Assembly: GCA_018062515.1 (NCBI GenBank)
Contig: JAGOSC010000003.1
Location: 14,495 to 78,494, forward strand
Origin: Candidatus Omnitrophota bacterium
Lineage (GTDB): Bacteria > Omnitrophota > Gorgyraeia > Zapsychrales > Zapsychraceae
DNA: 64,000 nt
Direction of reading: 5' to 3'
Shown here: positions 24,901 to 60,900 of the stretch, piece by piece
Layout: each line of letters begins with the position of its first letter
Position numbering within the stretch: the stretch's first letter is position 1
Notes under the pieces: generated by a model
What the model saw: the letters and a program-made list of their open reading frames with translations, nothing else
Databases searched by the model: none
Told to the model about the DNA's origin: nothing
Translations under genes and position numbers: made by a program

Positions 24901-27900
24901 TCTTGGCTAAAATATTGGTTCCACCGGAAAGACCTAACTCGACGATGACTAATTCCATGTCTGGGTTATTTTGTGCTTCACGGACTAATTCAATCGCCTT
25001 TCTTTCCTGAAGAACATCCGGCTCGCCACGTAATTTCGCGTCTTCGCCGACGAGAACAATTAATTTTTCTTTATCAAATTTCACTTTTTCACCGTTCATC
25101 AATTCAATTTCTTTGACTCTAAAGACATGATCTGTGCCTTCGACCAAATGACCTGATTTCTTTAATCGTTCAGTTAATTTCTTGAAGCCTAAAGCGTTCC
25201 ACAGAGAAACTAACGTAACTCTGGTATCTTTTGTGTTCATTTCTGGATGAGTTATGGCTTTTGATATGACATCAACAATCGGATCTCCCGGTCTATCGTG
25301 GCTCGCCGGCGTTAAATCAAATTCTATTTTCGCTGATTCCGGAAGACCAGGTTCTTTACCTAAACGGAAAATCCTCATTCCTTGCATTTCCGCCGATAAA
25401 CGCATGGATTCCGCCGTCGCTGTCATACCTATACCACCAGCGACCAAACGATGGACATCTGCCGGTTTGACAGCATTTTCGACTTTTGACAATGCCGCAG
25501 TCAAGTAATGATCCATGCTGAGTTTTTCCATAATAACTATGGCGCGGGCTGTATGAGCATCGCCTGGAATCGTTCCCGGTTGAGAGAATTTATTAGCGGT
25601 CAACATGTAAATACCAAGATCACTATCCGGATCTAGGCCATGAATCGGATTGTCACGGGCAAATATCATTTCGATAAACGCATTCACCTGTTTGATAATT
25701 TCTTCACGAGTTTCCTCAAAAACTTCTTTTCCGTTTTCTTTCAATTTATTTAATTCTTCTTTATATTCTTTAGAGAATTTCGCCAATGGACTTAATTTTT
25801 CGCCATCCTTCACGAAGGAACGAAGAACCGGGCGTCCATATTGGTCTGTATCGAAAATTAATTCTTTTTGGCCTTTAACTTCAGCCAGCATTTTCATGAT
25901 GATTTTTTCTTTGATTTCATCCAGCGGCTTCATCAATTCAAGTTCATGTAGTTTTTCTTTTGCCTCTTTATCGCCGAGCTTAACTTTCGCTTGTAATTCT
26001 TGACGTTCTCTATTTCCCTTAATTAAGTCAGCGGAACGTTCGTTAGCATCTGTTTCGTCGCTGATTTCAAAAACGCGTTTTCCGATAACCTTATTTAATA
26101 TTTTGCGTGAAACTAATTCTTTAGAATCTTTGAAATCTCCGACGTTAATACCGTCCTTAAAGATAAAGTTATCTTTTTGCTTAATACGGCGTATACCGTT
26201 CTTTTCGCGTATTTCTTTCAGCAATGGATGATTCATAAATCGGTCCACTAATTTTTCCGGAATATTTACCAAAATAATTATCTTGCCATTTGTTTTTCTA
26301 TATAACCAGCGGGCAAAAGCGGCCGATAAGTCAGATTTACCAATACCGGCATCGGCGGCGTTAATGTCAAATCGGCCTTTTCCGTTTAAAAACGCGCGGG
26401 CAGATTCCAAAAATACCTTGGCCGCGTGAATCTGAGCCAAGCGGTTTTTGGACAGATCATAGAGTTCAATTCCGCCTTCGCTGACTGGCGTGGATTCCAT
26501 ATCACGTTTAACTTCGACGAGAATTTCGTATAATTCCAAAGTTTCCTTATCCAATTGACTCAAATCTTTCTTCAGTTTAAGTTCTTTAACTTTATTTTCA
26601 TCGTTAAACAGACGTTCCACTTCTTTAGATACTTCAATATAGTGTTCATTGATTTTTTCCGTTGATTTTGTTTCCGTCGGAGTTTTACGAATAGATGATT
26701 CAGCCGCGCCGCGTTTGTTTTCCTTGATGAGCCTTGGATCAAATCGATTAATGAAATTTTTCATTAATGATTTTTTCGATTTCTTGGCGATCATACTTCT
26801 ATCTTTAGTCGACGTCGTTTCTTTTGCTTCCACCTTGGAACTGAACATTTCCTTTAGAATTCTTAACATCTTTTCATACCATGATTCTTTCGGTGGAGTC
26901 GGTGAACCATTCGATGAACCTGAACCTAAAGTACCATTAGATGATGAAGGATTATTACCGCCGTTATTACCTGAAGATAAACCGCCACGACCACCTGTTC
27001 CGAAGAAACCGCCCATAGCCATTGCGGTCATTATGGATACATGTTCGCCGGAATTCATCCAAGTCGTTAAAACGTAACCGGCGACCGCTGAAATAATTAC
27101 CGGTCCGACGGAGTTTCTGTCCAACACTCGTTTGATCTTATAGAATAATTGTTGAGCTGAATCTTTTGTTACACGTTTAGCTTTGCGATGTGTGACGACG
27201 GACGCGATCAAACTGCCTAAAGTTAATAAGATAAATAATACGGAGACAGCCGCCTGATTCTTTTGTCCCGATTCCCCAATCGTAACTCCAGTTTTAGCGA
27301 AATAGGCGCTTTCTCCATAGTTTTGTCGACGAGATGATGTAATAACAGGGGCAAGACCATGAACTTTAGTTTTCGATTCCCCAATCGTATCCTTAGTTTC
27401 ACTATGGTCATTGCCCCTGTTGAAATAAAGGACAGCGTCATTCAGTTTCGATTCCCCAATCTTAACTTTAGTTACACTCAATGAATGTGTGACGCTGCCT
27501 TTAATATTTGTTTCTGAAATTAAGTTGTCTAAATGAATTGATTGTCCTTTAGCCACATTCATCGACGAGATATAGAGCATGAAACCGATCATAAACGGCG
27601 TAAAATACTTCAAAACACGTTTGATCAAGCTTGTTTGTTTCGTCGATGTTTGTTCTAATTCTTTATCAAGACCAGCCTCAATCACAGCTGGAGCATATTC
27701 AATCGGTGTGCCGTCACGTCTGGCTATAAAATAATTCTTGATATGACCAGGGTGATCACGGTCAAAAGCGACAATGGCTTCAACAATATCAGACACATAT
27801 TGGCTTCGATTTTCACTGCTCTTAGGTACAATAAACATCTTTCCTTTAACGAGGCCTAAAGCAATAGCGACGAGACTCAGAGCTGCCGTTCCTTCCACCT

Positions 27901-30900
27901 TAATACCAAACTTTTGATATAGAGCCATGCCGTAATAAGAGTCAATATTTGTCATACGGAAAGCGCCATCCGCATATTCACGTAGGCGATTCATAGCGCC
28001 GGGTTCCGGTGTCGCCGCGTTACCGTCGGAGGCTATCCCTTCATGCATCTCCCCAGTCGTTTCTGTAATCATTTGGATAGGTTCGCCAACTGGAACATTC
28101 TTGTTAGCTTCGAGTGTCATGTAACTCAAATCCGCAGGCGCTGTCGTAAATACGTACAAATGCGCTTGATTAATCATCGTCTTCACTTGAAGCCCGGCGC
28201 CGGCCGCCCAGCCACCTGAACCCATCGGCATAAGCACAACCAATTCACCATCTTTAAACCCTTTTATGGTAAACGATTTACCTTCTTTAAGCGCTGTCCT
28301 GCCAGCTGAATCTCCTTTATCTTTATCAAAATTATTTGGATCATATACTTCACCCGTTTCGGAATTTGTGACTTCATAACCACTCATGATTAAATCTTCC
28401 AACAATTGACGTACAATTTCCAAACCGCATGCCGAGTAACCTGAAAGGACCCATTCATATTTGGTTTTGTCAGCATGGCCGATTTGTAAATTCTCTTCCG
28501 GATTTTCGGCCACTAATTTCTCGACCTCTTCCAAAGCATGCTTATAACTCTTAAATTTGTCGATCAAAGTTCCAATTCCACCGGCACGCTCAATGTTATC
28601 TGCTTTGTGTTTCATAATCGGACCTGAGAAAACCAGGCCTTTCAGCTTCTTAATTGCTGCTTCGAATTTTGCTTCACTTAAACCACCTAATGGTTCTCCG
28701 CTCAATATTTCTTTAAATACATCTCTGGCGGCAAGTTCCTTATAGGTATTAACAAACCACTGATAGCCTTTCTTCTCATAAATTTCTATAACCGCACGTA
28801 CAGCCGTAACCGTGGCCAATCCATGATTACCAGTCGAAACGGCAATAACTTGTTTCGGAATTCTTCCTAAAAGAATGCGGATAAAAACTTCTACTGGCGC
28901 GCGATTTTTGAATGATCCGGTACGGTATAGCCATTCAAATAATTCGACAACAAAACCACTTGTTTCGTCTTTAAATTTCACTTCGACAGGTCGGCCAACA
29001 ATGTCGGATAGAAAATCGTTCATGCCTTTTATTGTGTAAAAATGTGTTACGACTTTAGAAACCATGCCGAATATACGCTGAAGTATTAAGGAAAGTCTAA
29101 CTTTCGCAAGTGTGATACCGCCTTCTTCTCTTCTAGCCTTAGCTTCAGCATGCGATAACGGAGTTAATTCAACATAATCAATTCCTTCTGGTAATTTTGT
29201 CTTTGCTCGACGAATGATATGACGGATGAATAATCCGGCGATAAGCGCTGTTCCAATAATAACAATACCAATAATAATTGTTTCGAAGCTGATCGTAGTT
29301 TTGGCAATCACATCAGAAAGGCTTTGAGCTTGAATACCGACGGCAGCTGAGAGTGATGCCGTCATTGTCGTGAAGAATATAACGAGAGAAATTAATTTAG
29401 ATCCACTATCATTTGATTCGCTATCGGTGGAGGCGTTGAGATCGGCTTCATTTTTGATTGAATCTTCAATAGGTGTTTGCTCAACTTTGCGTGTGCCTTT
29501 GAACACCATCATGCCCAATGGAGGCAATGTCATCGAAATGGAATTTTCACGATCATTGTATGGGATTTTTTCGGAATGTTGTCCTAACTTATTACCTATG
29601 TCACTGCCGCCGTATTTGGCAGAATCACTGTCTAAAATTGGTTCGAATTGACCAGCAAACGGTACACCGACGCGGTAATCGTTATGTACCGTCGGAGTTA
29701 AATTCGCGACAAACACAATCACTTCATCCGGATTATCACCTTTACGGCCAAAACTAATTACACTATGGTCATTATCATTAGCGATAAACTCATATCCGGC
29801 GTAATTCGAATCATATTGGTGAAGGGCTTGCTCATTCTTATATGCACGATTTAGATCGCTGAACCATTGTTGAACGCCGGCATGCAATGGATATTGCGTT
29901 AAGTTGAAATCGATACCTTGGTTATGATTCCATTCGGAATATTGGCCGAATTCTCCGCCCATAAATATTAATTTCTTACCCAACATGGCAAACATTAAAC
30001 CAAATAAAAGTCTTAAGTTCGCAAACCGCTGCCATTCGTCGCCGGGCATTTTGCTGAGTAGTGAAGCTTTCATGTGAACCACTTCATCATGCGACAAGGC
30101 CAGCACATATTTTTCGCCGGTCATGTAGGTAAAGTAGAAGGTCAGATCATTGATGTGATATTTGCGATATATCGAATCACGTTTGAAGAATTTAAGAATA
30201 TCATTCATCCATCCCATGGCCCATTTCAGGTCAAAGCCCAAAGCTTTACTATTATTTGACGCAGTGGATTCAGTAACGCCTGGCCAAGACGTTGATTCTT
30301 CGGCGATCATTAAGACACCCGGGAATTCTTTGTGAACCGTATCATTCAATAGTCTTAAGAAGCGGACAGCCTCGAGATTTTCATTTCCGCCATAAATATT
30401 CGGTTCCCATTCTCCAGCGTTTCGGCCATAATCCAGATGAATCATTGAGGAAACAGCATCGATGCGCATACCGTCGATGTGATAATATTCCAACCAGAAA
30501 TGGACATTGCTTAATAAGAAACTCATCACTTCATGACGTCCATAATTGAAGATCAATGTGCCCCAATCCGGATGTTCACCCTTCGATTTAGAATCATGAC
30601 TATAAAGTTCAGTACCATCGAAGCGGGCTAATCCATGAGCATCTTTCGGGAAATGCGCCGGAACCCAATCAATAATGACGCCAATGCCGGCTTGATGAAG
30701 TTGATCAACCAAATATTTGAAATCATCCGGCGTTCCGTAACGTGATGTCGGAGCGAAATAATTGCTGACTTGATATCCCCATGACGGATAATAATTGTGT
30801 TCGAATACAGGCATCATCTCGACATGGGTAAAGCCCATGGCTTTTACATATGCAACCAGTTCAGCGGCCAATTCACGGTACGTTAAGAATCCTGTTTCTC

Positions 30901-33900
30901 CATTTTCTAGTATTTTCTTTCTGAAAGAACCCAAGTGTATTTCGTAAATTGAAATCGGATGATTGATCGATGTTTCAACTCTATTCTTCATCCATTCCCC
31001 ATCATTCCATGTGTACTTCTTAACATTCACGACTTCAGAGGCTGTGCTATATTCTTTTCCTTCGGTTGGATGTTCGTTGTACTGCGCGTATGGATCCGCT
31101 TTAGTTTGAACTTGACCATCTTTACCGACGACGTGGAATTTATAACGACTTCCTTCTTTCACGCCAGCGATATAAATCGACCATACGCCGCTATCTGTAT
31201 CCAATGTCATTTGATTTGATTCATGTTGGCCATTGTTAAAATCACCGATGACTGAAACGGCCTGAGCATTTGGCGCCCAGACGGCGAAATAAGTACCATA
31301 TACTTTTTGTTCAGTTTCGATTAGATGAGCGCCGAGCTTTTCATAAACGCGGCTATGAGTACCTTCGTGATTGAATAAAAGTTTATCGAATCCGCCGAAT
31401 TGTAAGCTATTGATTTTTTCTTGAACTAGACGAGCTTCTTCATCCAATTCGGTTTGATAGGTAAAGAATTGATCTTCACGTTGGCTGTTGAGTTTATGGG
31501 AAAGGTTGAATTCAGCGACGGCGCCGATTTCGTGGACCAAGCTGGCGGCGGCTTGAACGTCGGTTAAATATCCGCGTGTTACGTATTCAGGATGATTAGA
31601 TAGGAGTATATATTCTTCATTGTTATATTCATAAACGGTAGCTAAAAATCCTTTGAATGGACCGGCGCGGACATAACCGGCGCTAACCATCGCACTCAAT
31701 CGTTCAGCCATGGCTTTGTAACCGTGACTATATAAATAATCAAGCGCAATCGTAACGGCTGCATCATTGATCATTATCGTGGCCAAACGATTAATATCAT
31801 TCTTTCTCGTTCTTTCTCTTATTTCTCTGAGAATAGAAATAACTTTTAGCGTTAAGCCTTCTGCTTTTAATCTCCAATCCCAATTGTTCACCGTTGTGTT
31901 AGGCTTATTCATTCTGGCTTCTCCGCCCAAACCAAGCACATCTTGCATTTGAACAATCGCTGTATTGGCTTTTGATGACATCGCAATCTGAATTAAAGCC
32001 AAATGAATATTTTTCTCGTTAATTTCTTTATTCAAGAATTCTTCAATCTCAATTTTTTCTTTAGCCGTGGCATCCGCAATATACCAACCGACTGTCGTGT
32101 TATTATCATGAGTTCCGGGATAAACCACTGTATTTGAATCAACATCACCCAATCCGAACTGAAGAACTTTCATGCCAGGCAAGTTAAATTGTTTTAACAA
32201 GGCTGTTACTTTTGGCGTAATTTTATCTTCCGCGCCTAAATCCTCGGCGATAAACGGCATATCTGGGAAATCTTTTTTCAATTGATTAAACAAGTCGGCT
32301 TGTGGACCGTCGAGCCATTTTCCATTTTTGGCTGTCTCTTCACCAGCTGGAATGGCCCAGTAAGCCACAAACCCGCGGAAATGATCCAATCGAATAATGT
32401 CGAAGAAATTAAGTTGATGGCGTAAACGGGCAACCCACCAGGCATAATTATTGTTCTTAAGCACATCCCAACGATAAAGCGGATTACCCCAAATTTGTCC
32501 AGTTTTACTAAACGCATCAGGCGGAACTCCAGCTTTAAACTTGAGCTGATTGTTTTCAGCCAGATCAAAATACTCACGGTTAACCCAAACATCGGCGCTG
32601 TCATGGCTGACAAACATTGGGACATCTCCGATAAGACGGACATTATTTTTAGAAGCATAGCTCTTCAATTCCTTCATTTGTTTGTACAACATGAATTGTA
32701 CAAACATGACTTCTTGAATATTGTCTTTATGCTTTCGCTGATATTTCTTGATCGCCGTTTTATTTCTATTTCTTACATCTTCTTTCCAATCCCACCATGG
32801 TTTTAATTCATTATTTTCTTTGAGAGTTCTGAATAAAGCGTAATCTTGCAACCAATCATCATTATTGGCGATAAATGTTTTAAATTCTTTTTTGTTAGCC
32901 GTTGATTTGAAGCGTTGATAGGCAATTTTTAATAAACGCTTTTTGAATTGGACAACAGCTTCATAGTCGACGAAGTTTTCATCGCCGGATTTAAAATCAG
33001 ATATTTCTTCTTCCGTCAAGAATCCGTATTCAACCAATTTTTCTAAACTGATCAATAACGGATTTAAGGCAAAGGCTGAATCGCTCAAATACGGTGAATG
33101 TTTGGTATAACCATCCGTCGGTGATAATGGAAGCATTTGCCAAATATGTTGTTTGGCTTTGGCTAAAAGATCAATAAATAGATACGCAGCCGGTCCAAAA
33201 TCTCCAATACCATGACGTGATGGCAATGATGTCATGGACAACAATACGCCGCTTTCTTTCGCTTCCGTCACGCGCTTGACTTCTTTACGGACCGTCACTC
33301 GGGTCGGCATTTTCTCGCCGGGAACTGGACGGGCTGCATCTTTTCTGACTGGTTTTAACTCCAATTCCAAGACTAAGTAACCCTGCGGATTTAAGATCAC
33401 TGTTGAGTTCTCAGTGAATGGATATTGTTCTTCACTACTTTCAAGACTGGTCCACAGGCCATTATTCTTCTCAGAAATATTCCATTCAGCTGGATTTAAG
33501 TTGAGCGTGAATGTTTGTGTTTCTTCTGAACGATTCACAATAACTAATCCCTGTTTCTGTCCGAGTTTTCGCTGGAAGACAAGTATGCCGTCTGGCAACC
33601 GACCGGTTACAATTTTATTAATTTCACCATTGCTCCATAAATCTGTACGGGTTTTGGGCAACCAATAATCATAAAATCTTCTTACATCAGGATTATTGGT
33701 TTCATTTTCAGGATGTCGTGTTACATACGTAGCGGTTGGTTTTTCCTTTGATCGTCCGTCGCGTTGACCAGAATTGATCATCACCATACCAGGTATCGTC
33801 ATCATGATGATCGCAGCAGCCATTTGCTGTTCTGTCGTCAAGAAGCTGGCTATACGTCGAGAAGGATCGTCATGATTTTCTAAGAAATGAACCGTGCGAG

Positions 33901-36900
33901 ATAAATAATCTAAAGTCGTTCTATCACGATTGGTTAAATAATCCCACAATTCGTGTGTCGATTGTTGTCCGTCGACGAGAATGTCAAACACATGTTTGTC
34001 ATAGGTATAATCAGATCCCAATTCTTGTAAATATTTCTGCAAGAAATATGATTCAGAAACGAAAATAGCATTCTTATAACCTTTCTTTAGTTCATTTAAT
34101 AATTCCGCAAAAACTTCCGTAGAAACCAATTTTTTGCCGCCATTCGTATGCAAAAATCCGTTAAGTTTTTCTTTTAACAATAATTCGGCCATATCGATTC
34201 GGAATCCGCCGCCATTAGTTAAGCCAAGAATATGTTTCAAGACCTTAATCATGTGTTCTCTTAATTCCGGATTGGTCCAATCTAACTCAACGGTATCTAT
34301 CCACGGCGCGCTGTTTGGCCCTTCTTGTCCATGGAGAAACGCTCTTGGACCATGGATCGTATCAGCGATGAAATATCGATTGTTATATTTCATGGCATCT
34401 TTACGATTCTTCATATAATCCCCGAGTCTAAGTGCCGTCAACCCTAACGCTTTTAATTTTTCCAAGCTGATAGAAACGAACCACTCTGGATTGGAGTAGA
34501 TCCATGATGAATCGGCAGCCATATGATTTGGAACAAAGTCGACGATGACTTTCAAGCCAGCGGCATTGGCACGTTTCACTAATTTACGGAATGATTGTTC
34601 CGTTCCTAATTCTTCATTGATCGTGTAATCCTTAATGCTATAAGCTGAACCGATTCGTTTTTCATCCCACATTTTATTGAACTTGACCGTAAAGTCGCCG
34701 GTTTGCCAAATACCCATCATCCAAACGATGTTAAAGCCTTCTTTGCGTAAATTCTTCAACATCTTCGTCGAGACTTGATCGAAACGAAGGCCTTTTTCAC
34801 GGGCATTCCATAAATACATATTGGCGCCTTGGGTTTTGATTTCTTCATCAACATTGATTTTAGATTTCAAGATCGTTGCCAACGCTTCGTCATTCAGATT
34901 GACTGAATGGTCACCCTTCTTAATCGCTTCAACCTTGGCAAAAATTTTGCGATTATGTTCAGCGTGGATTTCAGCGGCGGCCATGATGGCTTCTTGTTTG
35001 GCCAATTCAACTAATTCTGAATTATCCATTTCCGGTGATTCCTTACGTACTCTTTCATAGGCCTTCCAGAATGTTTCTGCGAAAACCTCGTCAGTTTTGC
35101 GGGCTAATGCAAGAAGTTTTTTCATTTGACCGATTGTCGGCAGGACACGTTTATTTTGAATAGGATCGTAAATTCCAGATTTAAGATGGTCGTAAACGAA
35201 TAGATACTCTGATTTACGATCAAAGTTGGTGGAAATTAGACTGAATTTGCTAATTCTGTTTGACTCTTCAATATATGGACCAAATTCAGGCGTGGTTGCG
35301 TAGATTTTAATAATTTCTTCTTCTGTATAATTCTTATTCGGGTTCTTTTCTTTAAGAATATTTCTAATGAATTGCATCCATCTATGATCGAAAATCATCG
35401 CCGGCGGAGCGTTGGATGAACCATTATTTCTATTCTTATTTTCTTTAACCTGTTTACGATTTTCCGTCGCTGAGTGAAGTGCGGTGTACATCTTTTTACC
35501 CATCCAAACAAACGGGCCGGCAAAACCGACAAAAATTAAGTACCATTTATTCTTTCTTAATTGTTCATTCTTGATGAAGAAGTCTGGTTTGTTAACGGCT
35601 GACGTATAGAAAACACTGAAATATTGTGTTGAAATACCGTCGATGGCGACGGCAAATGAAGCTAAGACTGGATGCTGAACGATGAAGCTGCGTACGATTG
35701 AATGTATACGTGTCATCCAATAGGCTTCAAATTGTTTAGCACCGACTTTTCCAGCTTCTTCTTTCAATCTTTCGATGTTTCCACGGACAAATCTAACCAT
35801 ATTGGTATAACCAAATGTTCGTAATCGAACCATGGTCATGATACCAGCAATTCTTAAGGCGGTTGTCACCGCTTCTTCTATACCTGTTGATTGACCGCCA
35901 AATAAACTTGGAGCTAGATGACTTACCATCCATACTATGGCCGCAATTCCCGTCGTGGCGACGACTGCAAATTTAACATCCTTGATAAACTCCTCTTTAT
36001 CAAATGCTTTGGATAATTTAATTGTTCGGGCTTTATCCATCATTCCCATAAGATCCACTGCAACCATAAATGCGCTGACTGACAGAATTAAATATGTTAA
36101 ATCTAAATCTTTCGGCGCGATGACGGTGAAGTAAACCCAGCTGAACGCTCCCATGATCAAACCTAATGGGAAGGCCGCCACGATTTGTTTCTTGATAATG
36201 TCCTGACCGCCGATCCATTGACCAGAAAAGTCCGTGGCTGCCATGAACATACCGAAGATGATAATGTTAGCGACCGGTAAAGCGACGACGAGCGTCAATA
36301 ATCCGAAGAGATAACCGTAGGTTAACAAGGCTAAAGCTGAAATAGCAGAAACACTGACCAGGGCTTTGAATAATACATTCTTGGTCCGTTTGTTTTTCTG
36401 AACAGAATTATTCTTTTGATCGTCGACTCCATTGCTCGCGGCATTGTCCGTCAATAGTTTGGATTGTTCCGCTTTAGCCAACGCGTTATTTTTGTTTATT
36501 TGTTCTATTTCTTGAGCCGTAAACAATGGTTCAATGAACGGCTGGAATCGAGCAGGAACTGCCTTTGAACCATTCTTTAGAGAGCCAAACAAACTTCCCA
36601 AATATGTTTCAACATTAAAGACATCCATGGTTTGTTTTAATTTAATTCCTGATTGGCGAGAAAGAAGTTCCGCGCGGTCCTTTAATTGTTTCAGACTATC
36701 GTCAGTAACGATAAACATGCGGTGACGTCGGCCGCTCAAGATATTTTTGTTCAACTGATCCGCGCCATATACCTTGAATCTCTTTTTATCTTTATCATCT
36801 TTCTTCTTGGTCATCATCATGAAAGCGATATAAAGCGAATGCTTCCACAAAATTTCTTTAACCATCTTGTCAAAACCTCTTTTCTCAGCGCGTTTCTGCA

Positions 36901-51900: not shown

Positions 51901-54900
51901 CAATCTTGTTGAATGTAATTCCGCCGCGTCTATAGTTGAACTTATTGCCGTTGACATCGGTATAAATGCCGCCGTTCTTAAGCACATTGAAGCGTCGGGT
52001 ATTTTCCAAGTTTTGTTTTTCACGTTTAACATCTTCTTCCATTTGTTTAAGCCCGGCGATGATAACAATTCTTTCTAAACGTCCATCCTTATGCGCGATG
52101 AGGAATTCCATTTCATTCTTGGAACTGGTGAATTCAATATCCATGCGAAGGGCTTTTAGCTCACGTAAGCGGATCTTTTCATCTTTTGTTAAAGTACGTT
52201 CTTTTTTCGTTTGCTCTAATTGAACCTTTTCCTTCAAATCGTCTTTTAAATTCATATAGTATTCATAGTTTTCTTCGCCGGGCTTCACTTCAGTCTTTTG
52301 CACTTCTTCGAGAGTTAACTTTTTCGCCTTTGAGTTATATTTGGCAAATTCATTAGAAATAATCTTAACTTCTTTACCGATTTCATGAGCGATGCGATTT
52401 AAATCAGCCTTCATTAATATAGTTAAAGCTGTTTCATCCGTACCTTTCTCCTCGTCGGATAATTGATCATAAAGTTGCGCAAACATATTCGTTGGGTCAA
52501 TGATATTTCCGTTAACCTTGACTCTAAAATCAATACCTGCATTGCCGCTGTTTCCAATAATTTCACCAACTTTAATTCGATCGCCGATCATGACATCAGC
52601 ACCAGATAAATCTCCGTACACGATGCTGATTTTATTTCCTTCATAATCGATGGCGGTCTCAACTTCAATTTCAAACTTGCCGTTCTCTTTATCTTGTCCG
52701 ACATGGATGACTTCGCCGGTCATATTTGACGGGATTTCTGTATCGTCGGCGACAGCGATGGTGATTCGGTCATTATCTAATGTGAAACGTCCGTCTTTAT
52801 ACGGGCTATTATGGATAAGTTTAGATCGTAATAAAGCCATTCGAAGCGCTGCGAATTTCTTCACATCAGCTATGACAGTTGGTTTTGTAATTTGATTATT
52901 TTCAATTTTCGTTGTTAAGAAATTATCGCCGGCCACGACGCTGATGAAATATTGAGCGGTTGAGCCTAAGGCTTGATTGCCCACGGCAGTTTTAGATCCA
53001 ATACCGGTTTCAACGCCTTTAAGGGTGGCTTGCGGGAAGCTGCCGTCTTCATTCATCATTAATTCAAGTTGAGGTCGGTATAGTTTGACCCGTTCAATTT
53101 GCACATTAGCCTCGTCGAGTAAACCATATTGTCTGAAATATGGAATGAACATTTTGAATACGCCGATCGCTTGGGCGGTTTCTTTAGTAAATCCTATTCT
53201 TCGTTTACTTTCATCCGTGACGTCATTACGCTTGGTCATGGCGGTCTTCAAGTCAACTAAATCAAACAAGCTGACTTCTTTTCCTTTATACATAACGTTA
53301 ACGCCGAATGTCTCGACGATTTTGTTGAGAAGTTTGGCGAATTCCCGGGCGGCTTGCTCATTGGTCATGCCTTTTGTCTTGATAAAGGTGTCAGCATATT
53401 TTTGTGGGCCCATGGCTTCTATCAATTGCATTTGAACATCCGACGTGAATCCTTCAGCATCTTTTTGATTTTTAAATAATCCGGTTTCTTTATCTCTCAA
53501 GGTTTTAATAAAGCTTAAGCTTCTGCGGCTAGCTTCCCGGGAGTCGTCATCATCATTTTGCTCAGCATAATTATTGAAGAAGGCATATACAATCAAATTG
53601 GTTCTTAAGTCTTCAGCATTAGGAGTAATTCCTCTTTCTGAAAGCGGCAAGATATATTCCGGAAGGACTTTACCAAGTTTCAAATCAGTGTCTCCGAACC
53701 GTTTAACTGTCAGTGTTGTTTTTTGGTCTTGTACATCCAGCATCAAATCTTTAATATCTTCCAACATACGATGATAGCGGTAATCATGCGTGGACTTCTC
53801 ATAAGTCATAATTGCCAAACCAATCGCCGCGGTGGTAGGTACATGCGGATTTCCATGAGGTTCACCGGTATTGACGTCGATATCGCGCGCGAATCCGCTG
53901 AAGGAAACGCCACGGCCTTCGACTTGTTTCTTATAGCTAATATTATAATAATAATTAAGTGTGCGTTTGATGCTCTTGATATCGTTACTGATTAAATTCT
54001 TGATAATATCCTCCGCGTGATCCATACCAGTTCCGATTGAATATGAACCAGGCATTTCTTCGTCATAAGATTTAGGCGTTCCCGTCGGTGTGTTATACGC
54101 GCCAAAATCACTACCCATGTTCGTAGAAACTCCACTTTCTTTCAGCGCGAGCTTCATATTTTCCAAAGTTTCCATTTCTTGATGGATCTTCTTCAACTGA
54201 CTCTTAATTCCGTTGCGGGTAAATATAATCACTCTCTTATGTTCTGTGCCGTCGGCGTCAATGGTTGTTGCCAGTGTGACCGGAACTTGTATGGTACGGC
54301 CTTTGCCGTCGTCGATCTCTACGGATTGCACTGTTTTAAATAGGGCATTATATTGTTCTTGGGTATATGTAACGGCTTTATCATTGAATATGTTTGAGCG
54401 AATATCATAGGCTACAATGTTTTTATTATCTTCAATGCGATTCAAATGCTTGAGAAGATCCTTTTCCCAACCTAAAGTAAATGAATAGAACGGTACACCG
54501 ATACTAAATCTGAGCCCGGTCGGCGCTTCTTTAAATGGATAGCTCAATTTGTTATCACCGAATAGATCGGAAGCCCAATTAATCACGGATCGGCCATCTA
54601 ATCCAATGTTGACCACGTTCAAAATCTTATCGAGATAGGTAGCTTTCTGGGTCAATAAATCGTCGAATCTCTGATAATGAATTTGATGGCCAAGGAATAT
54701 GGATGATAAGGCCTCACCAATATTGACGCTGCCATTATATTTGATAATGCGCTGGCTTAAAATATTGACCAAGGTTGGATTTTTAGGTATGTCATACACT
54801 GGTATAATTTCTGTCCAATATTTTGGATCTATTTTTGGCGTCGATGGATCAACACCATTCAATCCAAACGATGATGGGTTGGTATTAGGATCTTGGAATT

Positions 54901-57900
54901 CTTTAGGTTGAGCGGATTTAATATTTTTCTCGGTGTTCAAACTTTCGGCTGCTCCGAGGAAAGAGGCGGCGTTCGACAATAGCCCCATGATAAAGCCGAT
55001 GTTTCTTTCGGCTGGAAGGCTCTTTAGATAACTAAACATACGCTCAGCATCTTCCGGTGTGAAATCACTTTCTAGTCTTTTCTCGGCTCTTCGTTTGTAT
55101 TCATCCTTGGCGCTCTGTGGAAGGGCGTTCCAACGTTTTGTGAATTCCCGGTCAAATTTATTTTGACTGAGCGTCTTTAAAGTCGGATCATTTTTCAATA
55201 ATTCTTCATTGAATAGGTATTTCTTATAGAACCGTATTTGCTCATTCTTCGTCGGGGCTTTAGGTGCTTTTTCCGGTTGAGTCATCATATCAAATACTAT
55301 TCCAGTCCCTGCCGTTAACAGCTTGAGCGGCGGGAAGAATCCTGTAAAGATATCGGCAAAGCCCGTGAAGAGATTAAAGACGCTTCTTTTCTCTAAAGTC
55401 TTTAACTGCTCTTTCTGTGCTTCTACTCTATTTTCTGCTTGCATCAAGCCCATAATGGCCTCGACTTCCTCGGCCTTATGCGTGTTCATGCCGTAAATAA
55501 TCCAGCTTTGATTGCCTTCTTTATCTTTTTCATCTTCGAATACTGAAATTCTTGGCAAAGGAGTTTGGCTGTATAACTTATTCACTGTTTTACGCCATTG
55601 CCCGTTGACATCCTTAACTTTCGTCACGATGACCGGATGTCCGGCTGATTTGTCTTCAAACTCTCTGGTATCGTCGTCGACCAAGAATTTCACGGCTTCA
55701 CTAATCATGCCGTCTTTGGTATTTACGATGACCGCTGAATATGGGTCTTTGCTTGGCGGCAACATGGCCTTTGAAAATTCAGGCGTTTCGCTGATTAATT
55801 CATCGCGTTCTTCAAGATCTTGGGTCTCTAATATATCTAATAATCGTATCAATACTTGTCGGTCACGAAGAACCGTTTCAGCCTTTTGAAGTTTAAGCTG
55901 CTGAGCTTTTTCACCGGAGCGTAGAATACCGCTGATCGGATTTCCTTGAAGGTCAAAACCTTGAACAACAGCAATCATGTCTTTTCCGAATTCTTCAGCT
56001 TCTCTGATTTGTTCATCGGTTAATTTAACGTAATATGGTGAAGTCGTAATATCTTCAAACGGATGTTTTCCTGCCTCAAGCTTGGCTTTATAAATCGTAA
56101 TGGATGCGTTTTCTTTGAATTTGTCAAATGATGGCTGATCATAGAGTGGCATGACGATCTCGTTGTAAGTATCCGGATTCATTGATATGACAAGATACAT
56201 TGGGCTGTCAGCACCGTTTTGTGTCATCAATTCATCAGCCGCTATTCCGTTGATCGACGCTGTGACGGTTCGTTCCAAAGTCTTTTGATCACCATCAATG
56301 TGAAGATTTTTCAATATTTCTTGGCGTTCTTCATCGCTTTGAGCACCGACGATATCTTTAGAAATTTTATTAAACTCTTTGTATAAATCGATCGTTTCAT
56401 CGTCTTGTTGTTTATCTTGATCGAGAGAAATTACCGGTTTGTATGGCTGGACCTTGATGTCTTTAGCTTCGTCGATCAATGTGCTCAACTCAGGCAATGT
56501 TCTGGCATTTTTCAATTTAATTTGAGCAGATTGTTTGGTGACATCAAAATCGTATCGTTCGGTTAATTTGATTCTTGTATCAATCAATGATTTTGTTTCG
56601 TAATGATTGATTGTTAATGATGTTGGGGCTTTCCCTAATTCTTTAAATTTGGTCGGCATTGGCGGAAGATAATTGTTTACTTCTTCTTTCTCGACGTTAG
56701 CTGGCACTGAAGTAATCGCCTTGAATTCACTCATGTCAGATGAAATTGTTTCATCGGTATCACCAAATTCAGTTTTTGTGGTGCTTTCTTCACTTGATGT
56801 ACCTTCTTCAACGTTCGTATCATTGCTAACAAAACTATGTCGTTGGCCGCCTCGGTGTTGTTTCTTCATAGCCATAAGCTTTTGATCCAATTCGCTCTTT
56901 TCGTAAATGCTCATGACATCAGACACATATTTACGTGTATCTTTGATTTCCGGAATTGAACCAGCAGCATTGTTAACCGCGTCTTCTCCGGCGTGATATG
57001 AGGCTAAAGCAAATTCTTTGCTATCAAATGACTTGAATTGTTTAGCGAATTGATATGAGCCAGCCAAAACGTTGATCGCTGGATCAAAAATGTCTGATTC
57101 TTTCCAATCCATCTTCAATTCTTGTGCAATTTTCATAAATTGTTCCGGAGTAATTTGCATTAATCCTCGGGCATTATTTTCAGTAGAGATTTTGTTTGGA
57201 TCAAAACCGCTTTCCTTAATAATGATCGCTTGAATCATTTGTCTGAAACTATCGCCATTTTTGAATTGCTTATTGAGGTTAAGGTCATCCATGTCAAAGA
57301 CCTTGTTAATGGAGCTTGAAATCTCAGCGTTTAAGCTCATTAAATCTGAAGACATAACCGTGTATTTAGCTAACATTTCAGTCACTACGTTTCTGTCGAA
57401 GTTTTCAGCTGGATTTGGTCCGACACCGTCTTTATGGAATTTTTCCATAGTAGACTTGGCCCAAGAAGGCATAACATTTGGCTGATCAGCATTAAACCAT
57501 TGACGTGAACCCATATCCAAGTGAAGTTGAGTCTTATAGAATCCAACCCCTTTAAATCCAGCTTGTAAGCCCATTTCCAAGAACAAGGCTTTTTCTTGAT
57601 CAGTTAAGGATTGTGTTTGGAAGTCAAATGCTCGGCCGGTATGATGTTCTTTTCCATCAACGCCTTCTGTATCTGTAGTTAATCTTGTTCCACTGCGATG
57701 TTCATCTTTGCCGTCTGGACCTTCATGATTAATTTGAACGAACTTGCCGCTCACCGTTGTAAACGCTCGGCCTAATTCATCGGCGGTCAAGGCAGCATGC
57801 GCATCAACGTCTGTTCCCGGCGCCGTCATGTCGGAAAGATCATAATGTTCAAGGTCATTATTTGAAGCCGTCCATTTACCTTCAACTGAATGCTGAAGCA

Positions 57901-60900
57901 TGTTATTAAATAAACCTACCTGGGTGGTGTATCCAGTCTTTGGTGATGGATTTTGAGGAATTGTATCGCTGCCGACGAAAAGGCTTAATGATCCAAATAC
58001 AATCGGAAGAAGATAAACAGGTAGAAGAAGTTTTTTCAGAGGCTTTTCAATGGATCTTAGCGCTGTCATGATCTTTTTGAAGCTAAATTTCTCAAAGAAT
58101 TTAATCGCTATTATTACGGCAAAAACAATACTAGCGACCATATATAGAGAAATTACAGCCCACTGTAATGGTCCGATATTATTCGCAGCCGTATCTTGAG
58201 CCATGGCCATTCCTGGTAACATGGTTACGGCGGCCAATACAGCTGCGAATTTCAATGTTTTCTTAAATAATGCGGAGACAGCGTCAGTTGTAGTTATTAC
58301 GATTCCCCAACCGTTGTTAACTTTAGTTTCTAAAGAACGACTGTCGCTGTCTCCGATATTATTAGTTGAGATTTCGGTAGATACTCTTGGTTGAATACTG
58401 AGGAACTTCACCGCTTTCCAAAGCATGCTGGACAAGCCGGCGAACACTTTTTTGACCAACGAGGTCAAGTTCATTCCAAGTGTCGGTAAGGCCATTTTTA
58501 CTGTAGATATGGTCCATTGTGTTGGTAATGAGATATAACCTGATTTTGTTGGTTGTGGTTTCACGGCAGCTGGCAATGAAACATTGACTTTGAGGGATTT
58601 GAACAAAATGCGTAATCTTAATGCTGGGTTTAGTGTTAAGAACGACCATTTCGCACCTCCGGAAATAGTAAAGGCTTGTTTGAAAATACGTACAAAAGTA
58701 CGTAATCCAAACAAGCCTTTATTTTGGTTGATGATCTTAGATTGAGTTTTTACTTGAGATGACGGTCCTCGGATTTGGCCATATTTGACTGACAATAAGG
58801 CTATGAGAACCAAAGATACAGCAATAGCGATAAGCCCGATGATAACTGGGCTTACGGATGTGGTACCGGCAAAAGCAATAATACTACCGGCATAGCGTAG
58901 GTTGGATGATCTACCAATAGACAAAGTCTCAGATTCGCGTACCGTATCAGTTTTATCTTCTACCGGCACACCTGAGGCTTTTCGATTTCTCTTATTAAGT
59001 AGATTTTCTGAGCGCGCAATTCTTGAATCTTGCTCAGTATATAAGCGAACAAAGCTTACATCATTAACGTTCTTTCTGCCTTTGGCGGCGTACTCAGAGC
59101 TAATGACTTTGCTTTGACTTATTTCTTCTTTAATTGTAGATACTGTTTCGTTCACAGTACCAGAACTGAATCCGCTCTTGTCGTTTCGAGCAGGATTTGT
59201 AAAACGAGTATTCTTGATTTGCTCTATAGCCTTAGCTACTCGCACCCCAAGAATTTCACTCTCCCCATTTACATTGCTGTAAGCGGATCGAATGGCTTCA
59301 ACCAATCTTCCGATTAGGTTGATGTTTTTTCCAATAATGTCTGCAGCATCTTTCGATCCTACAGTGTTGCCAGTAACAGCTTTCACTGCTACAAGAACTA
59401 ATCCAAAGCCCAATGCTTCAGATGAAACTACTGTGTAACCTACTTCTTCTTTACTACCATCTTCTCTATTTACATAGAGACGCACTCCAACAACTTTGTC
59501 CTTTCCAACTTCATTACTGAAGAGGGATTGAACTGCTTCTTCAGCCAATCTTCCGATTAAGCTGACAACTACTTCTACAATAATGTCTGTATCGGCTTTC
59601 GCTTCTACAGTGTTTCCAGTAATAGCTTTCACTATTACAAGAACTAATCCGAAGCCCAATGCTCCAGATAAAACTTTTTCGGTCGTTAAACCAGCTTTAG
59701 TTTCTTCAGCTTTATTTCCTACAACTGTGTAACCATTTACTTCTTTATTACCATCTTGTGTAAGACGTACTACAACAACTTTGCTCTCTCTAACTTCATT
59801 ACTGAAGTCGGATTGAACCGCTTCTTCAGCCAATCTTCCGATTAAGCTGATAACTACTTCTACAATAATGTCTGTATTGGCTTTCGCTTCTACAGTCGTG
59901 CTAGCAATAGATTGCTCTATCGCATGAGCTGATCCGGAAACTAATTTTCCAGATAAAGTTTCTTCAGCCTTACGGCTAGCTGTAACTTCATTAGCTTTTC
60001 CGGATTCTTCAACAACCTCATCCGATTCGGTTTTTGCTTCACTTGCTTGTCCGTGCGCTTTCGCACCAGAACCACTACTTCTACTATAATTGGTACCATT
60101 TTCAGCTAAGACTAACTGAACTAGTACTTCATACTGTTCTTGAATCTTTCGAACATTCATCAAGAATTCTTGAACAGGTCCTGCTTTGACTTTTCGAACT
60201 TCTACAACATTTACTACGATTGCTGTATTTTCTTTCTTTTCAGTGTTGCCACTGGTTTTGCCTTCTTTAGTTGTACCTACAGCAGATACGACTTTAGAAC
60301 CTTCGGCTTGTTCATTTACTACTTTGTTACTTGCTTCTTTACTTCTATCTCCTTCACTTACGTGAACAAGATATACTACTTCAACTTCATTCTTTCTGTC
60401 TGCGTTTCCGTAAACGAATCGAACTGCTTCAGCCAATCTTTCGATTAAGCTGATTACTTCTTGTTTTACGTTGTTTCTAACTCGAGCAACTGATAAAACT
60501 GCTGCTAGAACTAATCCGAAACCTAATGTTTCAGATGAAGTTTTTTCAGCCTTGCGGCCAGCTTTAACTTCGTCAGCTTTATTACCTACTTCTTTGTTAC
60601 TTACTTCAACTTCTTCTACAGTATTTAAAACATTTACAACTTTAATAATTACTTCGTTTGTCCGCGCTACTAGCATTTGCACTGCCTGGCCTATTGCGGA
60701 ATAGGCGGCAGCTAAGAATGCTGTCGGGCTAAGGCCAGAAGTAAGGCCCCGGGTCCTTGATTCTATTGATATTGCAACTAACCATGATTTACTTGCTTTT
60801 AATTCTTCTGAAATCTGTGGACCTACCTTAATATAGGCCTTGGATGGTCCAAACTCGTTTTGATATTTGACCATAGCAATCTTGGTCTTATTTCCACCAT

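What the first reader, a model, noticed from the sequence alone, without database searches (positions are those of the whole stretch)
27261..58325. A 30-nt DNA motif repeated 12 times inside the giant gene and decoded in two different reading frames
The + strand motif tt(c)cgattccccaa(t/c)cgttaactttagtt occurs at 27270, 27375, 27450, 37588, 37683, 37802, 37896, 38003, 38094, 38255, 43595 and 58301. The upstream TKV codons are always in frame. A 2-nt difference (AAC versus AATACG) shifts the register, so the identical core CGATTGGGGAATCGGAAA is read as T-I-G-E-S-E-K in six copies and as (N)D-W-G-I-G-N in the other six. Conservation of the nucleotide string across two frames points to DNA- or RNA-level selection or spread (a recombination or slippage substrate, RNA structure, or binding site) rather than purely peptide-level selection. 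Several copies sit just before predicted TM helices.
Basis: seen in the sequence. Interest (0 to 1): 0.75.

Follow-up and report, generated by a model that had tools for sequence, protein, structure and literature searches.

The report
Conserved RNA hairpin inside giant gene
The repeated 30-base motif is the unchanging tip of a roughly 80-110-base hairpin that sits in frame inside giant membrane-protein genes of Omnitrophota bacteria and is conserved as nucleic acid rather than as protein, which is why the same bases are read in two reading frames.

Summary
There are 12 copies against 0.15 expected by chance. All lie on one strand inside an ORF of at least 15,010 aa. Seven copies are read as T/K-IGES and five as (D/G)WGI, not six and six.

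The motif is the apical stem-loop (CGAUU-GGGG-AAUCG) of a 77-109-nt hairpin. The 10-14-bp basal stem differs between copies but stays complementary: 101 double-sided compensatory cells, against 6-35 in register-shifted controls.

The same module occurs in giant ORFs of four other Omnitrophota MAGs, in 49 core copies, all in the TIGES frame. All 56 IGES peptides in the five genomes use ATT-GGG-GAA-TCG, although GGG and TCG are rare codons.

An orthologous unit is about 88% identical in nucleotides between two genomes. The flanking protein there is 38% identical and third codon positions are saturated. G-U pairs and folding energies favour the sense strand, so mRNA is the likely active form.

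The DWGI frame is a change specific to this lineage: a 2-nt deletion before the apex and a 4-nt deletion after it.

Units lie as 1-22 tandem copies, mostly beside transmembrane or signal-like helices. Function is inferred only: a cis-acting mRNA element, probably recognised at its apex. No Rfam or Pfam family matches.

The parts
18956..63988 (-). Giant ORF of at least 15,010 aa, open to the window edge. It is a multi-enzyme, multi-TM protein of the Omnitrophota giant-gene type and hosts all 12 units.
   Evidence: One search gives the ORF. Searches give the Pfam domains: SLT, M23, glucan synthase, DUF218, alpha-amylase, GH77, CBM48/GlgB, PALP. One search finds about 37 hydrophobic helices. One search finds no stop in 63989-64000 and only 1 Cys.
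58267..58362 (-). Hairpin unit, GWGI frame (site 1, aa 1876-1908). A single unit followed by a signal-like helix.
   Evidence: 96 nt, 34 bp, -33.2 kcal/mol; z = -5.5. CM score 62 bits. One search gives the frame.
43562..43649 (-). Hairpin unit, DWGI frame (site 2, aa 6780-6809), between two TM helices.
   Evidence: 88 nt, 33 bp, -39.6 kcal/mol; z = -6.7; inverted repeat I16. One search gives the context.
38224..38309 (-). Hairpin unit, DWGI frame (site 3, aa 8560-8589).
   Evidence: 86 nt, 29 bp, -32.0 kcal/mol; z = -5.6; inverted repeat I1.
38062..38150 (-). Hairpin unit, TIGES frame (array site 4).
   Evidence: 89 nt, 28 bp, -33.9 kcal/mol; inverted repeat I3..
37978..38054 (-). Hairpin unit, DWGI frame (array site 4). 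It is the orthologue of a TIGES-frame unit in L008.
   Evidence: 77 nt, 28 bp, -31.5 kcal/mol; alignment to L008 shows deletions of 2 nt and 4 nt flanking the apex, plus one compensatory G-C to A-T change.
37864..37952 (-). Hairpin unit, TIGES frame (array site 4).
   Evidence: 89 nt, 32 bp, -30.2 kcal/mol.
37767..37857 (-). Hairpin unit, GWGI frame (array site 4).
   Evidence: 91 nt, 35 bp, -39.2 kcal/mol; inverted repeat I4.
37633..37741 (-). Hairpin unit, TIGES frame (array site 4).
   Evidence: -35.1 kcal/mol; inverted repeat I25; 88 bits.
37549..37646 (-). Hairpin unit, TIGES frame. It is the last unit of array site 4 and is directly followed by a TM helix.
   Evidence: 98 nt, 31 bp, -36.0 kcal/mol; inverted repeat I15..
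27426..27503 (-). Hairpin unit, KIGES frame (site 5), downstream of a signal-like helix.
   Evidence: 78 nt, 28 bp, -29.9 kcal/mol; inverted repeat I17.
27344..27421 (-). Hairpin unit, TIGES frame (site 5).
   Evidence: 78 nt, 28 bp, -34.0 kcal/mol; 66 bits.
27239..27319 (-). Hairpin unit, TIGES frame (site 5). Its 3' arm runs into the next TM helix.
   Evidence: 81 nt, 28 bp, -28.0 kcal/mol; z = -1.9, the weakest of the 12..

Best explanation
The 30-nt motif is the invariant apical part of a modular hairpin of about 80-110 nt that is embedded in frame in giant, multi-transmembrane genes of a clade of Omnitrophota.

Anatomy on the sense strand: a basal stem of 10-14 bp whose sequence differs between copies but stays complementary; an asymmetric internal loop carrying ...CGUUCAUUAACAGAAACUAAA; short middle stems AACU/AGUU and GUU/AAC; and the apical stem-loop CGAUU-GGGG-AAUCG.

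Selection acts on the nucleic acid, most probably on the sense transcript, and not on the encoded peptide. The peptide is a hydrophilic linker, (G)DSxRS[LF]TETKV-TIGESETE-xGAVS, that tolerates change.

In the lineage of this window a 2-nt deletion just 5' of the apex and a 4-nt deletion about 10 nt 3' of it re-phased roughly eight codons (KTIGESETEVV became NDWGIGNIG). The RNA apex and both basal arms were left intact. That variant then persisted at five places, which explains why one string is read in two frames.

Shown here: the hairpin, its covariation, nucleotide conservation across species independent of frame and of codon position, the bias towards the sense strand, restriction to giant ORFs in the data available, and placement mostly next to TM or signal-like helices.

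Inferred only: the function. My best guess is a cis-acting mRNA element recognised through its sequence-specific apex by a protein or by the ribosome/RNA polymerase machinery. It would control elongation, coupling, stability or processing of the very long transcript at module boundaries beside membrane-spanning segments. Tandem copies would add avidity or dwell time.
For: Structure:
- All 12 window units fold with the motif at the apex, with 28-35 bp and -28 to -40 kcal/mol.
- Eight units were tested against shuffles. Seven give z = -3.3 to -6.7 and the weakest gives -1.9.
- The window units fall in the most stable 0.1-4% of 103-nt windows of the gene.

Covariation on 37 distinct units from 5 genomes:
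- All 10 basal pairs show changes on both sides.
- There are 101 compensated cells, against 6-35 when the partner is slid by 1-3 columns. Pairing is 92.6% against 26-43%. None of 500 shuffles reaches the observed values.
- There are 33 different 5' arms.
- A unit's own 5' and 3' arms pair at -27.4 kcal/mol. Arms taken from different units pair at -14.6 kcal/mol.

Nucleotide-level rather than peptide-level constraint:
- All 56 IGES peptides in five genomes are encoded ATTGGGGAATCG. GGG is 5.6% of Gly codons and TCG is 7.7% of Ser codons in this gene, which gives P = 0.002 per copy.
- Within the same units, the Ser of RS[LF] uses 4 codons. The residue before Ile varies (T/A/K), but its stem bases stay fixed.
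- The same apex is read in two frames.

Orthologous comparison, window against L008:
- The flanking protein is 38% identical, nucleotide identity is 50% and third-position identity is 33%.
- The unit itself is about 88% identical in nucleotides and shows one G-C to A-T compensatory change.

Sense strand:
- Mean folding energy is -35.6 kcal/mol on the sense strand and -31.1 on the antisense strand (Wilcoxon p = 2e-7).
- The basal stem has 30 G-U cells against 8 A-C cells.

Translation:
- The frame is restored within about 25 nt of the shift, so the units are translated and not skipped.

Distribution:
- A scan of 185,579 species genomes found multi-copy hits only in 4 Omnitrophota MAGs. Every such locus is open in one frame across the whole fetched stretch, 8 kb except the 1.6-kb L005. 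A 2.0-Mb contig holds a single locus.
- There are no copies in the 19-kb non-giant part of the window.
- About 12 of 15 sites lie within about 20 aa of a hydrophobic helix.
Against: - There are no expression, structure-probing or binding data.
- Only five genomes are available, and the other four were found through the nucleotide pattern itself. This is an ascertainment bias, although secondary copies within the loci are free of it.
- Units within a genome are related, so covariation counts are not independent events. Almost all compensations are transitions (GC to AU via GU).
- Hairpins are also stable as single-stranded DNA on both strands, so a DNA-level role is not excluded.
- Stable mRNA structure is not generally enriched downstream of the about 30 TM helices that lack units (p = 0.59). 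A generic 'pause after every TM' model therefore fails.
- Two or three sites have no adjacent TM helix.
- Recent block amplification (405 nt x 5.4 copies at 98% identity in L011) shows that part of the copy number reflects turnover rather than function.
- I could not scan whole genomes for the core alone.
Confidence: 0.6

Rival explanations
1. It is a selfish or neutral in-frame palindromic repeat, of the kind seen in Rickettsia RPEs, PARCELs or MITEs. It spreads by duplication, unequal recombination or transposition into tolerant linker regions of the giant gene. The stems are kept complementary by hairpin-templated (template-switch) repair rather than by any function for the host.
For: - The unit is palindromic, translated in frame and placed in hydrophilic linkers.
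- Copies are dispersed to 5 sites across 31 kb of one gene, and only the hairpin itself is similar between them.
- Copy number changes quickly: 6 units in L003 against 22 in its sister L011, where a 405-nt block is 98% identical between copies.
- Antisense ORFs lie over the array, as expected for palindromic coding repeats (PMC2996958).
- Template switching is known to create and maintain hairpins (PMC8794818).
Against: - Unpaired bases (the GGGG loop, ACUAAA, GGAAAC) are invariant across five species and two frames. Templated repair cannot maintain unpaired bases.
- Orthologous arrays are retained while the flanking codons are saturated.
- No copies were found outside giant ORFs, including on a 2.0-Mb contig and in the 19-kb flank of the window.
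- No transposase lies nearby.
- The excess of G-U on the sense strand argues for RNA-level tolerance rather than perfect DNA-templated copying.
Confidence: 0.2
2. It is a DNA-level device. The hairpin- or cruciform-prone direct repeats act as a slippage or recombination substrate that varies the length of exposed juxtamembrane loops, in the manner of a contingency locus.
For: - All copies are direct repeats.
- Arrays differ in unit number between related genomes: 6 against 22, and 5 against 7.
- The hairpins are stable as single-stranded DNA on either strand, with z = -3.8 to -6.7.
Against: - Recombination needs homology, not an invariant apex combined with covarying stems.
- The window array is old and diverged. 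TRF finds no tandem repeat there, yet the apex is intact.
- Recombination between the two frame types would shift the reading frame.
- The strand asymmetry of G-U pairs points to RNA.
Confidence: 0.1
3. It is a purely peptide-level repeat, such as a structural or sorting motif TKV-TIGESE. Its nucleotide identity would then reflect recent common ancestry or concerted evolution. The DWGI copies would be degenerate.
For: - The peptide RS[LF]TETKVTIGESETE is well conserved in four MAGs.
- The repeats sit beside membrane helices.
Against: - There is no synonymous variation in 56 copies despite rare codons, while neighbouring conserved residues do vary synonymously.
- The DWGI copies keep the apex bases and a compensated hairpin, and they share the same frame shift at five places.
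- Covariation between the codons of the two arms has no explanation at the protein level.
- The peptide matches no Pfam, NCBIfam or PDB family.
Confidence: 0.03
4. It is a recoding signal, that is, a programmed frameshift or a ribosomal bypass of the hairpin.
For: - A stable hairpin lies inside an ORF, and one sequence is used in two frames.
Against: - A single ORF stays open throughout.
- The frame shift is hard-wired by indels and is compensated within about 25 nt. This shows selection for read-through in the zero frame.
- No stop codon or overlapping second ORF follows the units.
Confidence: 0.02

Closest known systems
Rickettsia palindromic elements (RPE), i.e. in-frame palindromic repeats in protein-coding genes. 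What I know of RPEs comes from my own knowledge of Ogata et al. 2000; they are also mentioned in PMC1779305 and PMC10969869.
   Same: They are hairpin-forming repeats of about 100 nt that lie inside ORFs. They are translated in frame and sit in segments the protein tolerates.
   Different: RPEs are scattered over many unrelated genes and intergenic DNA as single copies. The units here were found only in giant ORFs, often in tandem arrays. They have an invariant apex, covarying basal stems and conservation across species beyond that of the host protein. No sequence comparison with RPEs was made.
[quoted passage not shown]
   Same: They are tandem intragenic repeats whose coding DNA has dyad symmetry. 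They are frequent in membrane-targeted proteins, vary in copy number and have antisense ORFs.
   Different: PARCELs are defined by a 25-residue amphipathic peptide HMM, so conservation is at the peptide level. Here no DUF285 match is found, the unit is about 30-35 codons, the peptide is hydrophilic, and conservation is at the nucleotide level across two frames.
RNA hairpins embedded in coding sequence and recognised at the apex, such as the bacterial SECIS element bound by SelB and the picornavirus cre (from my own knowledge)
   Same: A stem-loop inside an ORF has an invariant apical sequence while the lower stem only needs to pair. It constrains codon choice. This is the closest analogy for how the element might work.
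   Different: There is no in-frame UGA upstream because the ORF is open. The units are tandemly repeated. No binding partner is known.
REP/BIME and REPIN hairpin repeats, which stabilise mRNA (from my own knowledge)
   Same: They are repeated hairpins that can block 3'-5' exonucleases and act in cis on long transcripts.
   Different: REPs are extragenic, have conserved arms and variable loops (the opposite of the pattern here), and are dispersed across the genome.
Omnitrophota giant genes, 'Archaeovorins' (bioRxiv 10.1101/2023.11.21.568195 and 10.64898/2026.06.07.730766)
   Same: The host gene fits this type. It is at least 15,000 aa and has many TM helices, SLT and M23 cell-wall hydrolase domains and glycan-metabolism enzyme domains. 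The MAG hits are labelled Candidatus Omnitrophota.
   Different: Term searches of the main text found no 'hairpin', 'palindrom', 'stem-loop' or 'secondary structure' in the 2026 preprint and no 'frameshift' in either; the one 'motif' occurrence in the 2023 preprint was not among the passages shown.

Membership tests
Rickettsia palindromic elements / in-frame MITE-like repeats | Palindromic repeat of about 100-150 nt able to form a hairpin and translated in frame | tested here: met
   Searches show the hairpins. Searches show they are in frame.
Rickettsia palindromic elements / in-frame MITE-like repeats | Dispersed over many unrelated genes and intergenic regions of the genome | tested here: not met
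   All multi-copy loci are open in one frame across the whole fetched stretch, i.e. giant ORFs. One 2.0-Mb contig holds a single locus. No copy lies in the 19-kb flank of the window. One caveat: the genome scan used the composite TKV + core pattern, not the core alone.
PARCEL (DUF285/TIGR02167) | Match to the 25-residue amphipathic repeat HMM | tested here: not met
   Pfam and NCBIfam scans of the giant protein and of the arrays give no DUF285 or TIGR02167 hit.
PARCEL (DUF285/TIGR02167) | Dyad symmetry of the coding DNA and tandem arrays in membrane-targeted proteins | tested here: met
CRISPR array | Short repeats separated by unique spacers of similar length, non-coding, with cas genes nearby | tested here: not met
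   The 'spacers' share conserved sequence and are complementary to each other across the repeat. The region is one continuous ORF. Neighbouring genes are housekeeping genes.
Bacterial SECIS element | In-frame UGA shortly upstream of the hairpin | tested here: not met
   The ORF has no internal stop. Units are preceded by ACU AAA GUU.
Programmed ribosomal frameshift site | Slippery site plus stimulatory structure linking two overlapping ORFs | tested here: not met
   There is a single open frame, and the shift is encoded by compensated indels.
Any Rfam family | Covariance-model score at or above the gathering threshold | tested here: not met
   There are no hits in the whole window at the gathering threshold. 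On the array, only chance-level hits appear at E <= 1.
Integron attC site | Conserved R''/R' core sites at the base of an imperfect hairpin, located between gene cassettes | tested here: not met
   Here conservation is at the apex and the base is variable. The element is intragenic.
Omnitrophota giant multi-TM gene (host gene context) | ORF over 10,000 aa with many TM helices and cell-wall or glycan enzyme domains, in Omnitrophota | tested here: met
   The related loci come from MAGs titled Candidatus Omnitrophota. The taxonomy of the window itself is inferred, not shown.

The most novel reading that the evidence does not exclude
The hairpin is a previously undescribed class of intragenic structured RNA that is dedicated to expressing giant membrane-protein genes. 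On this reading it is independent of reading frame and specific in its apical sequence, and tandem copies form a multivalent site on the nascent transcript of 45 kb or more. There it would recruit a factor, or engage the ribosome or RNA polymerase directly. The effect would be to re-synchronise transcription, translation and membrane insertion, or to protect or process the transcript, at boundaries between enzyme modules.
Probability: 0.3. Interest if true: 0.85.

Novelty: new variant of a known kind. Interest (0 to 1): 0.7.

Why it matters
How cells transcribe, translate and insert proteins of 15,000 to 147,000 residues is an open question, and the Omnitrophota giant-gene papers say that processing points and the insertion mechanism are unknown. 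A hairpin that is conserved better than the protein around it, placed beside membrane-spanning or signal-like segments and repeated up to 22 times, is a concrete and testable candidate for a cis-acting signal in giant-gene expression.

It is also a clear natural example of overlapping constraints. RNA structure here overrides codon choice and even the reading frame, and compensatory evolution is visible inside a coding sequence.

In practical terms, the covariance model and the 23-nt apex give a marker for finding related giant genes and their module boundaries in metagenomes.

Tried and rejected
Searches that found nothing useful:
- Three protein homology searches found nothing: the window array, a TIGES array from L008, and the conserved region downstream of the array.
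- The exhaustive HMMER search of 1.84 billion representatives gave one spurious eukaryotic repeat protein. No comparison set ascertained through the peptide could therefore be built.
- The metagenome scan with the composite pattern gave only single matches that lack the extended core, so they are chance or unrelated hits.
- The viral scan found nothing.
- Rfam found nothing.
- Pfam, NCBIfam and PDB searches on the repeat peptide found nothing significant.
- TRF sees no tandem repeat in the window array because the units are diverged.

Ideas considered and rejected:
- CRISPR-like array. The conserved block starts with GTT and ends with GAAAC, but the 'spacers' are conserved and self-complementary, and the whole region is one ORF.
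- attC site, SECIS element and programmed frameshift or bypass. See the membership table.
- A dsDNA operator for a dimeric regulator. This does not explain complementarity 35 nt on either side of the core.
- A generic 'mRNA structure after every TM helix' model. Structure downstream of TM helices without units equals the background.
- Intrinsic terminators. Terminator-like sites are not enriched (16 found against 13.6 expected) and none corresponds to the sense-strand unit hairpin; one + strand match overlaps unit 37549-37646.

I did not run AlphaFold on the repeat peptide. A single-sequence model of a low-complexity linker would not have been informative.

Full report
OBSERVATION

The 13-mer GATTCCCCAATCG, allowing at most 1 mismatch, occurs 12 times in the window. 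All copies are on the + strand. Dinucleotide shuffles give 0.15 expected. All copies lie inside one minus-strand ORF, 18956..63988, of 15,010 aa. That ORF is still open at the right edge of the window.

I translated each copy in the gene's frame. One coordinate is off by one: 37587, not 37588.

The host protein carries SLT, peptidase M23, glucan synthase, DUF218, alpha-amylase, GH77, CBM48/GlgB and PALP domains. It also has about 37 hydrophobic helices. This is the architecture described for Omnitrophota giant genes (bioRxiv 10.1101/2023.11.21.568195 and 10.64898/2026.06.07.730766).

RELATIVES

I scanned one genome from each of 185,579 species with ACTAAAGTN{5,9}TTGGGGAATCG. This pattern does not favour either frame. 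Multi-copy hits appeared only in four MAGs titled Candidatus Omnitrophota or 'bacterium': L003, L005/L010, L008/L012 and L011. The remaining hits were single chance matches. The same pattern found only chance or unrelated matches in the metagenome collection and none in viral contigs.

Each of the six real loci is open in one frame across the whole fetched stretch (8 kb, or 1.6 kb for L005), so each lies inside a giant ORF. They contain 49 core copies, all in the TIGES frame. Every IGES peptide in all five genomes (56 in total) is encoded ATT-GGG-GAA-TCG. GGG makes up only 5.6% of Gly codons and TCG only 7.7% of Ser codons in the window gene, so the chance of this encoding is about 0.002 per copy.

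Within the same units, the Ser of the conserved RS[LF] uses four different codons, and Arg and Leu also vary synonymously. The residue before Ile varies between T, A and K, yet its two bases that belong to the stem stay fixed. Conservation therefore follows membership of the stem, not codon position.

WHAT THE MOTIF IS

Lining up the copies showed that the sequence upstream of each motif is the reverse complement of the sequence downstream. Different copies use different complementary pairs:
- GGAGACAGCGCC / GGCGCTGTCTCC
- GGTGATGCC / GGCATCACC
- GAGGGCAAC / GTTGCCCTC
- AAGGACGGCG / CGCCGTCCTT
- in the DWGI copies, GACAATGCCCTT / AAGGGCATTGTC and ACAACGCCCAT / ATGGGCGTTGT

Each of the 12 window units folds into a hairpin of 77-109 nt with 28-35 bp and -28 to -40 kcal/mol, with CGAUU-GGGG-AAUCG at the apex. 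Seven of the eight units tested against shuffles give z-scores of -3.3 to -6.7, and the weakest gives -1.9. The window units fall in the most stable 0.1-4% of windows in the gene.

I aligned 37 distinct units from five genomes (A1). All ten basal pairs show changes on both sides. There are 101 compensated cells, against 6-35 when the 3' partner is slid by 1-3 columns. Pairing is 92.6%, against 26-43% in the slid controls. None of 500 shuffles reaches the observed values. There are 33 different 5' arms.

A unit's own arms pair at -27.4 kcal/mol, while arms taken from different units pair at -14.6 kcal/mol. In most units the unit's own 3' arm is the best partner among all 46.

A covariance model built from the alignment (R1) finds no further copies in the window, its 19-kb flank or L001. 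Rfam has no matching family. The peptide has no Pfam, NCBIfam or PDB match.

RNA OR DNA, AND WHICH STRAND

The hairpins would also be stable as single-stranded DNA on either strand. Three observations favour the sense transcript:
- The sense strand folds better than the antisense strand, -35.6 against -31.1 kcal/mol (Wilcoxon p = 2e-7).
- The basal stem contains 30 G-U cells against 8 A-C cells. A-C cells would be G-U on the other strand.
- Nearly all compensations are GC to AU transitions, the route that passes through G-U.

I therefore regard the mRNA as the likely active form. This is an inference, not something shown directly.

DEPTH OF CONSERVATION AND ORIGIN OF THE SECOND FRAME

The window array at aa 8560-8814 is orthologous to the five-unit array in L008, because the same downstream TM and juxtamembrane region follows both. 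That flanking protein is only 38% identical. Its codons are 50% identical and third positions 33% identical, which means they are saturated. The orthologous unit is nevertheless about 88% identical in nucleotides, and it carries one G-C to A-T compensatory change in the basal stem.

The alignment shows how the DWGI frame arose. GTTAAAACGATT became GTTAACGATT, a loss of 2 nt. About 10 nt after the apex a further 4 nt were lost. Roughly eight codons were re-phased (KTIGESETEVV became NDWGIGNIG), while the TKV codons, both basal arms and every apex base were kept.

All five DWGI or GWGI copies share the AACG(A/G)TT junction, which is consistent with a single origin. Their basal stems have since diverged and been compensated. 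The variant is therefore not recent, and it has been maintained at five places spread over 20 kb.

The restored frame shows that the units are translated rather than bypassed.

CONTEXT IN THE PROTEIN

Units occur as 1-22 tandem copies at 15 sites in the five genomes. About 12 sites lie within about 20 aa of a hydrophobic helix. The typical arrangement is a signal-like helix, often with an AxA-Q motif, upstream, and a TM helix followed by a basic cluster downstream. By the positive-inside rule this places the peptide in a short exported loop. Two or three sites lack adjacent helices.

Copy number is dynamic. L003 has 6 units where its sister L011 has 22, produced by a 405-nt four-unit block repeated 5.4 times at 98% identity. 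The window array is diverged, and TRF finds nothing there.

MECHANISM

Shown:
- The element is a hairpin with an invariant, partly unpaired apex and a covarying base.
- It is under purifying selection at the nucleic-acid level, independent of reading frame.
- In all available data it is restricted to giant ORFs.

Inferred: it acts in cis in the giant mRNA and is recognised through its apex, with tandem copies adding avidity or dwell time.

The candidate roles are listed below. I cannot discriminate between them with these tools.
- Pacing of the ribosome or RNA polymerase at points where the nascent chain must re-engage the membrane.
- Maintaining coupling, or anti-termination, on a transcript of 45 kb or more.
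- Forming a barrier to exonucleases.
- Acting as a processing site.

A generic 'pause after every TM helix' model is not supported. The 30 TM helices without units show no excess downstream structure.

RIVALS

A selfish RPE- or PARCEL-like repeat, with stems maintained by template switching (PMC8794818), explains the dispersal and the changes in copy number. It does not explain the invariant unpaired bases, the retention at orthologous positions while flanking codons are saturated, or the absence of copies outside giant ORFs.

A DNA slippage substrate explains variation in copy number but not the apex or the strand bias.

A purely peptide-level motif is contradicted by codon invariance, two-frame use and covariation between the arms.

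Recoding is contradicted by the single open frame and the compensated indels.

COMPARISON WITH KNOWN ELEMENTS AND NOVELTY

The nearest known kinds are in-frame palindromic coding repeats (RPEs, and PARCELs as described in PMC2996958) and, by analogy of mechanism, ORF-embedded hairpins recognised at the apex (SECIS, cre). The element fails the defining tests of each: genome-wide dispersal, the DUF285 HMM, and an upstream UGA.

Term searches of the two Omnitrophota giant-gene preprints found no mention of hairpins, palindromes or frameshifts. I rate the element a new variant of a known kind. I give about 0.3 probability that it is a new class of functional intragenic RNA specific to giant genes.

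LIMITS

Only five genomes are available. The relatives were ascertained through the nucleotide pattern itself. Units within a genome are related, so the counts are not independent events. There are no expression or structure-probing data. I could not scan whole genomes for the core alone.

Noticed in passing
window 18956-63988 (-); also L003, L005, L008, L010, L011, L012: The giant proteins are almost free of cysteine. The window ORF has 1 Cys in 15,010 aa (at aa 11853), and 13,872 aa of giant-ORF sequence from four other MAGs have none. The 14 neighbouring ORFs have 1.18% Cys. Trp and Tyr are at normal levels, so this is not general avoidance of codons one step from a stop. A search for 'cysteine' in the two Omnitrophota giant-gene preprints found nothing.
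   Followed up: partly
window 58193-58258 and 27539-27610 (-); L003, L010, L011, L012 upstream of their arrays: The hydrophobic helices just upstream of the hairpin arrays look like internal signal peptides. They have a basic n-region, an h-region and an AxA-like c-region followed by Q (AMA-QD, AKG-QS, AQA-QT, TQA-QD, ARG-QT). They are candidate signal-peptidase cleavage points of the giant polyprotein. The literature says the cleavage sites are unknown.
   Followed up: no
window 63989-64000: There is no stop codon in frame upstream of the listed TTG start, so the giant ORF runs off the window. The gene may be longer than 15,010 aa.
   Followed up: partly
window 58181-58250 and 58669-58721 (-): Two further strong hairpins lie in the giant mRNA near site 1, at -33.8 and -30.5 kcal/mol. 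The first overlaps the signal-like coding segment. Neither is related in sequence to the motif.
   Followed up: partly
basal stems of all units (window and loci): The 5' arms are purine-rich and resemble Shine-Dalgarno sequences (GGAG, GGGG, GAGG). The 3' arms resemble the anti-Shine-Dalgarno sequence (CUCC, CCCC, CCUC). The orientation is never flipped. This may bear on interaction with the ribosome, or it may simply reflect the G-D-S and A-V-S codons.
   Followed up: no
window 37467-37763 (+) and 37983-38348 (+): Antisense ORFs of 98 and 121 aa lie over the array. This is expected as a by-product of palindromic coding sequence and is not evidence of genes.
   Followed up: no
window 20051-20347 / 20810-21106 / 21678-21810, and 59332-59896 (-): The giant gene contains other, larger internal duplications that are unrelated to the motif. 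One is 297 nt at 92% identity, encoding a block ...AVFYAATNTGDSVDGNDDQAFLALKLDLTRGEPEM... repeated three times. Another is 134 nt at 92% identity near the N-terminus.
   Followed up: no
L011 4595-6782, compared with L003: A four-unit block of 405 nt is repeated 5.4 times at 98% identity in one MAG. The orthologous site in a sister species has only six units. This indicates recent tandem amplification of hairpin units.
   Followed up: yes
window 14431-18802 (+): mutS and mutL lie immediately beyond the 3' end of the giant gene and converge on it. The other neighbours are housekeeping genes: Ham1, RNase PH, QueC, a racemase, an amidase, a secretin, RsmB and a pilin. No transposase or integrase is present.
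   Followed up: partly
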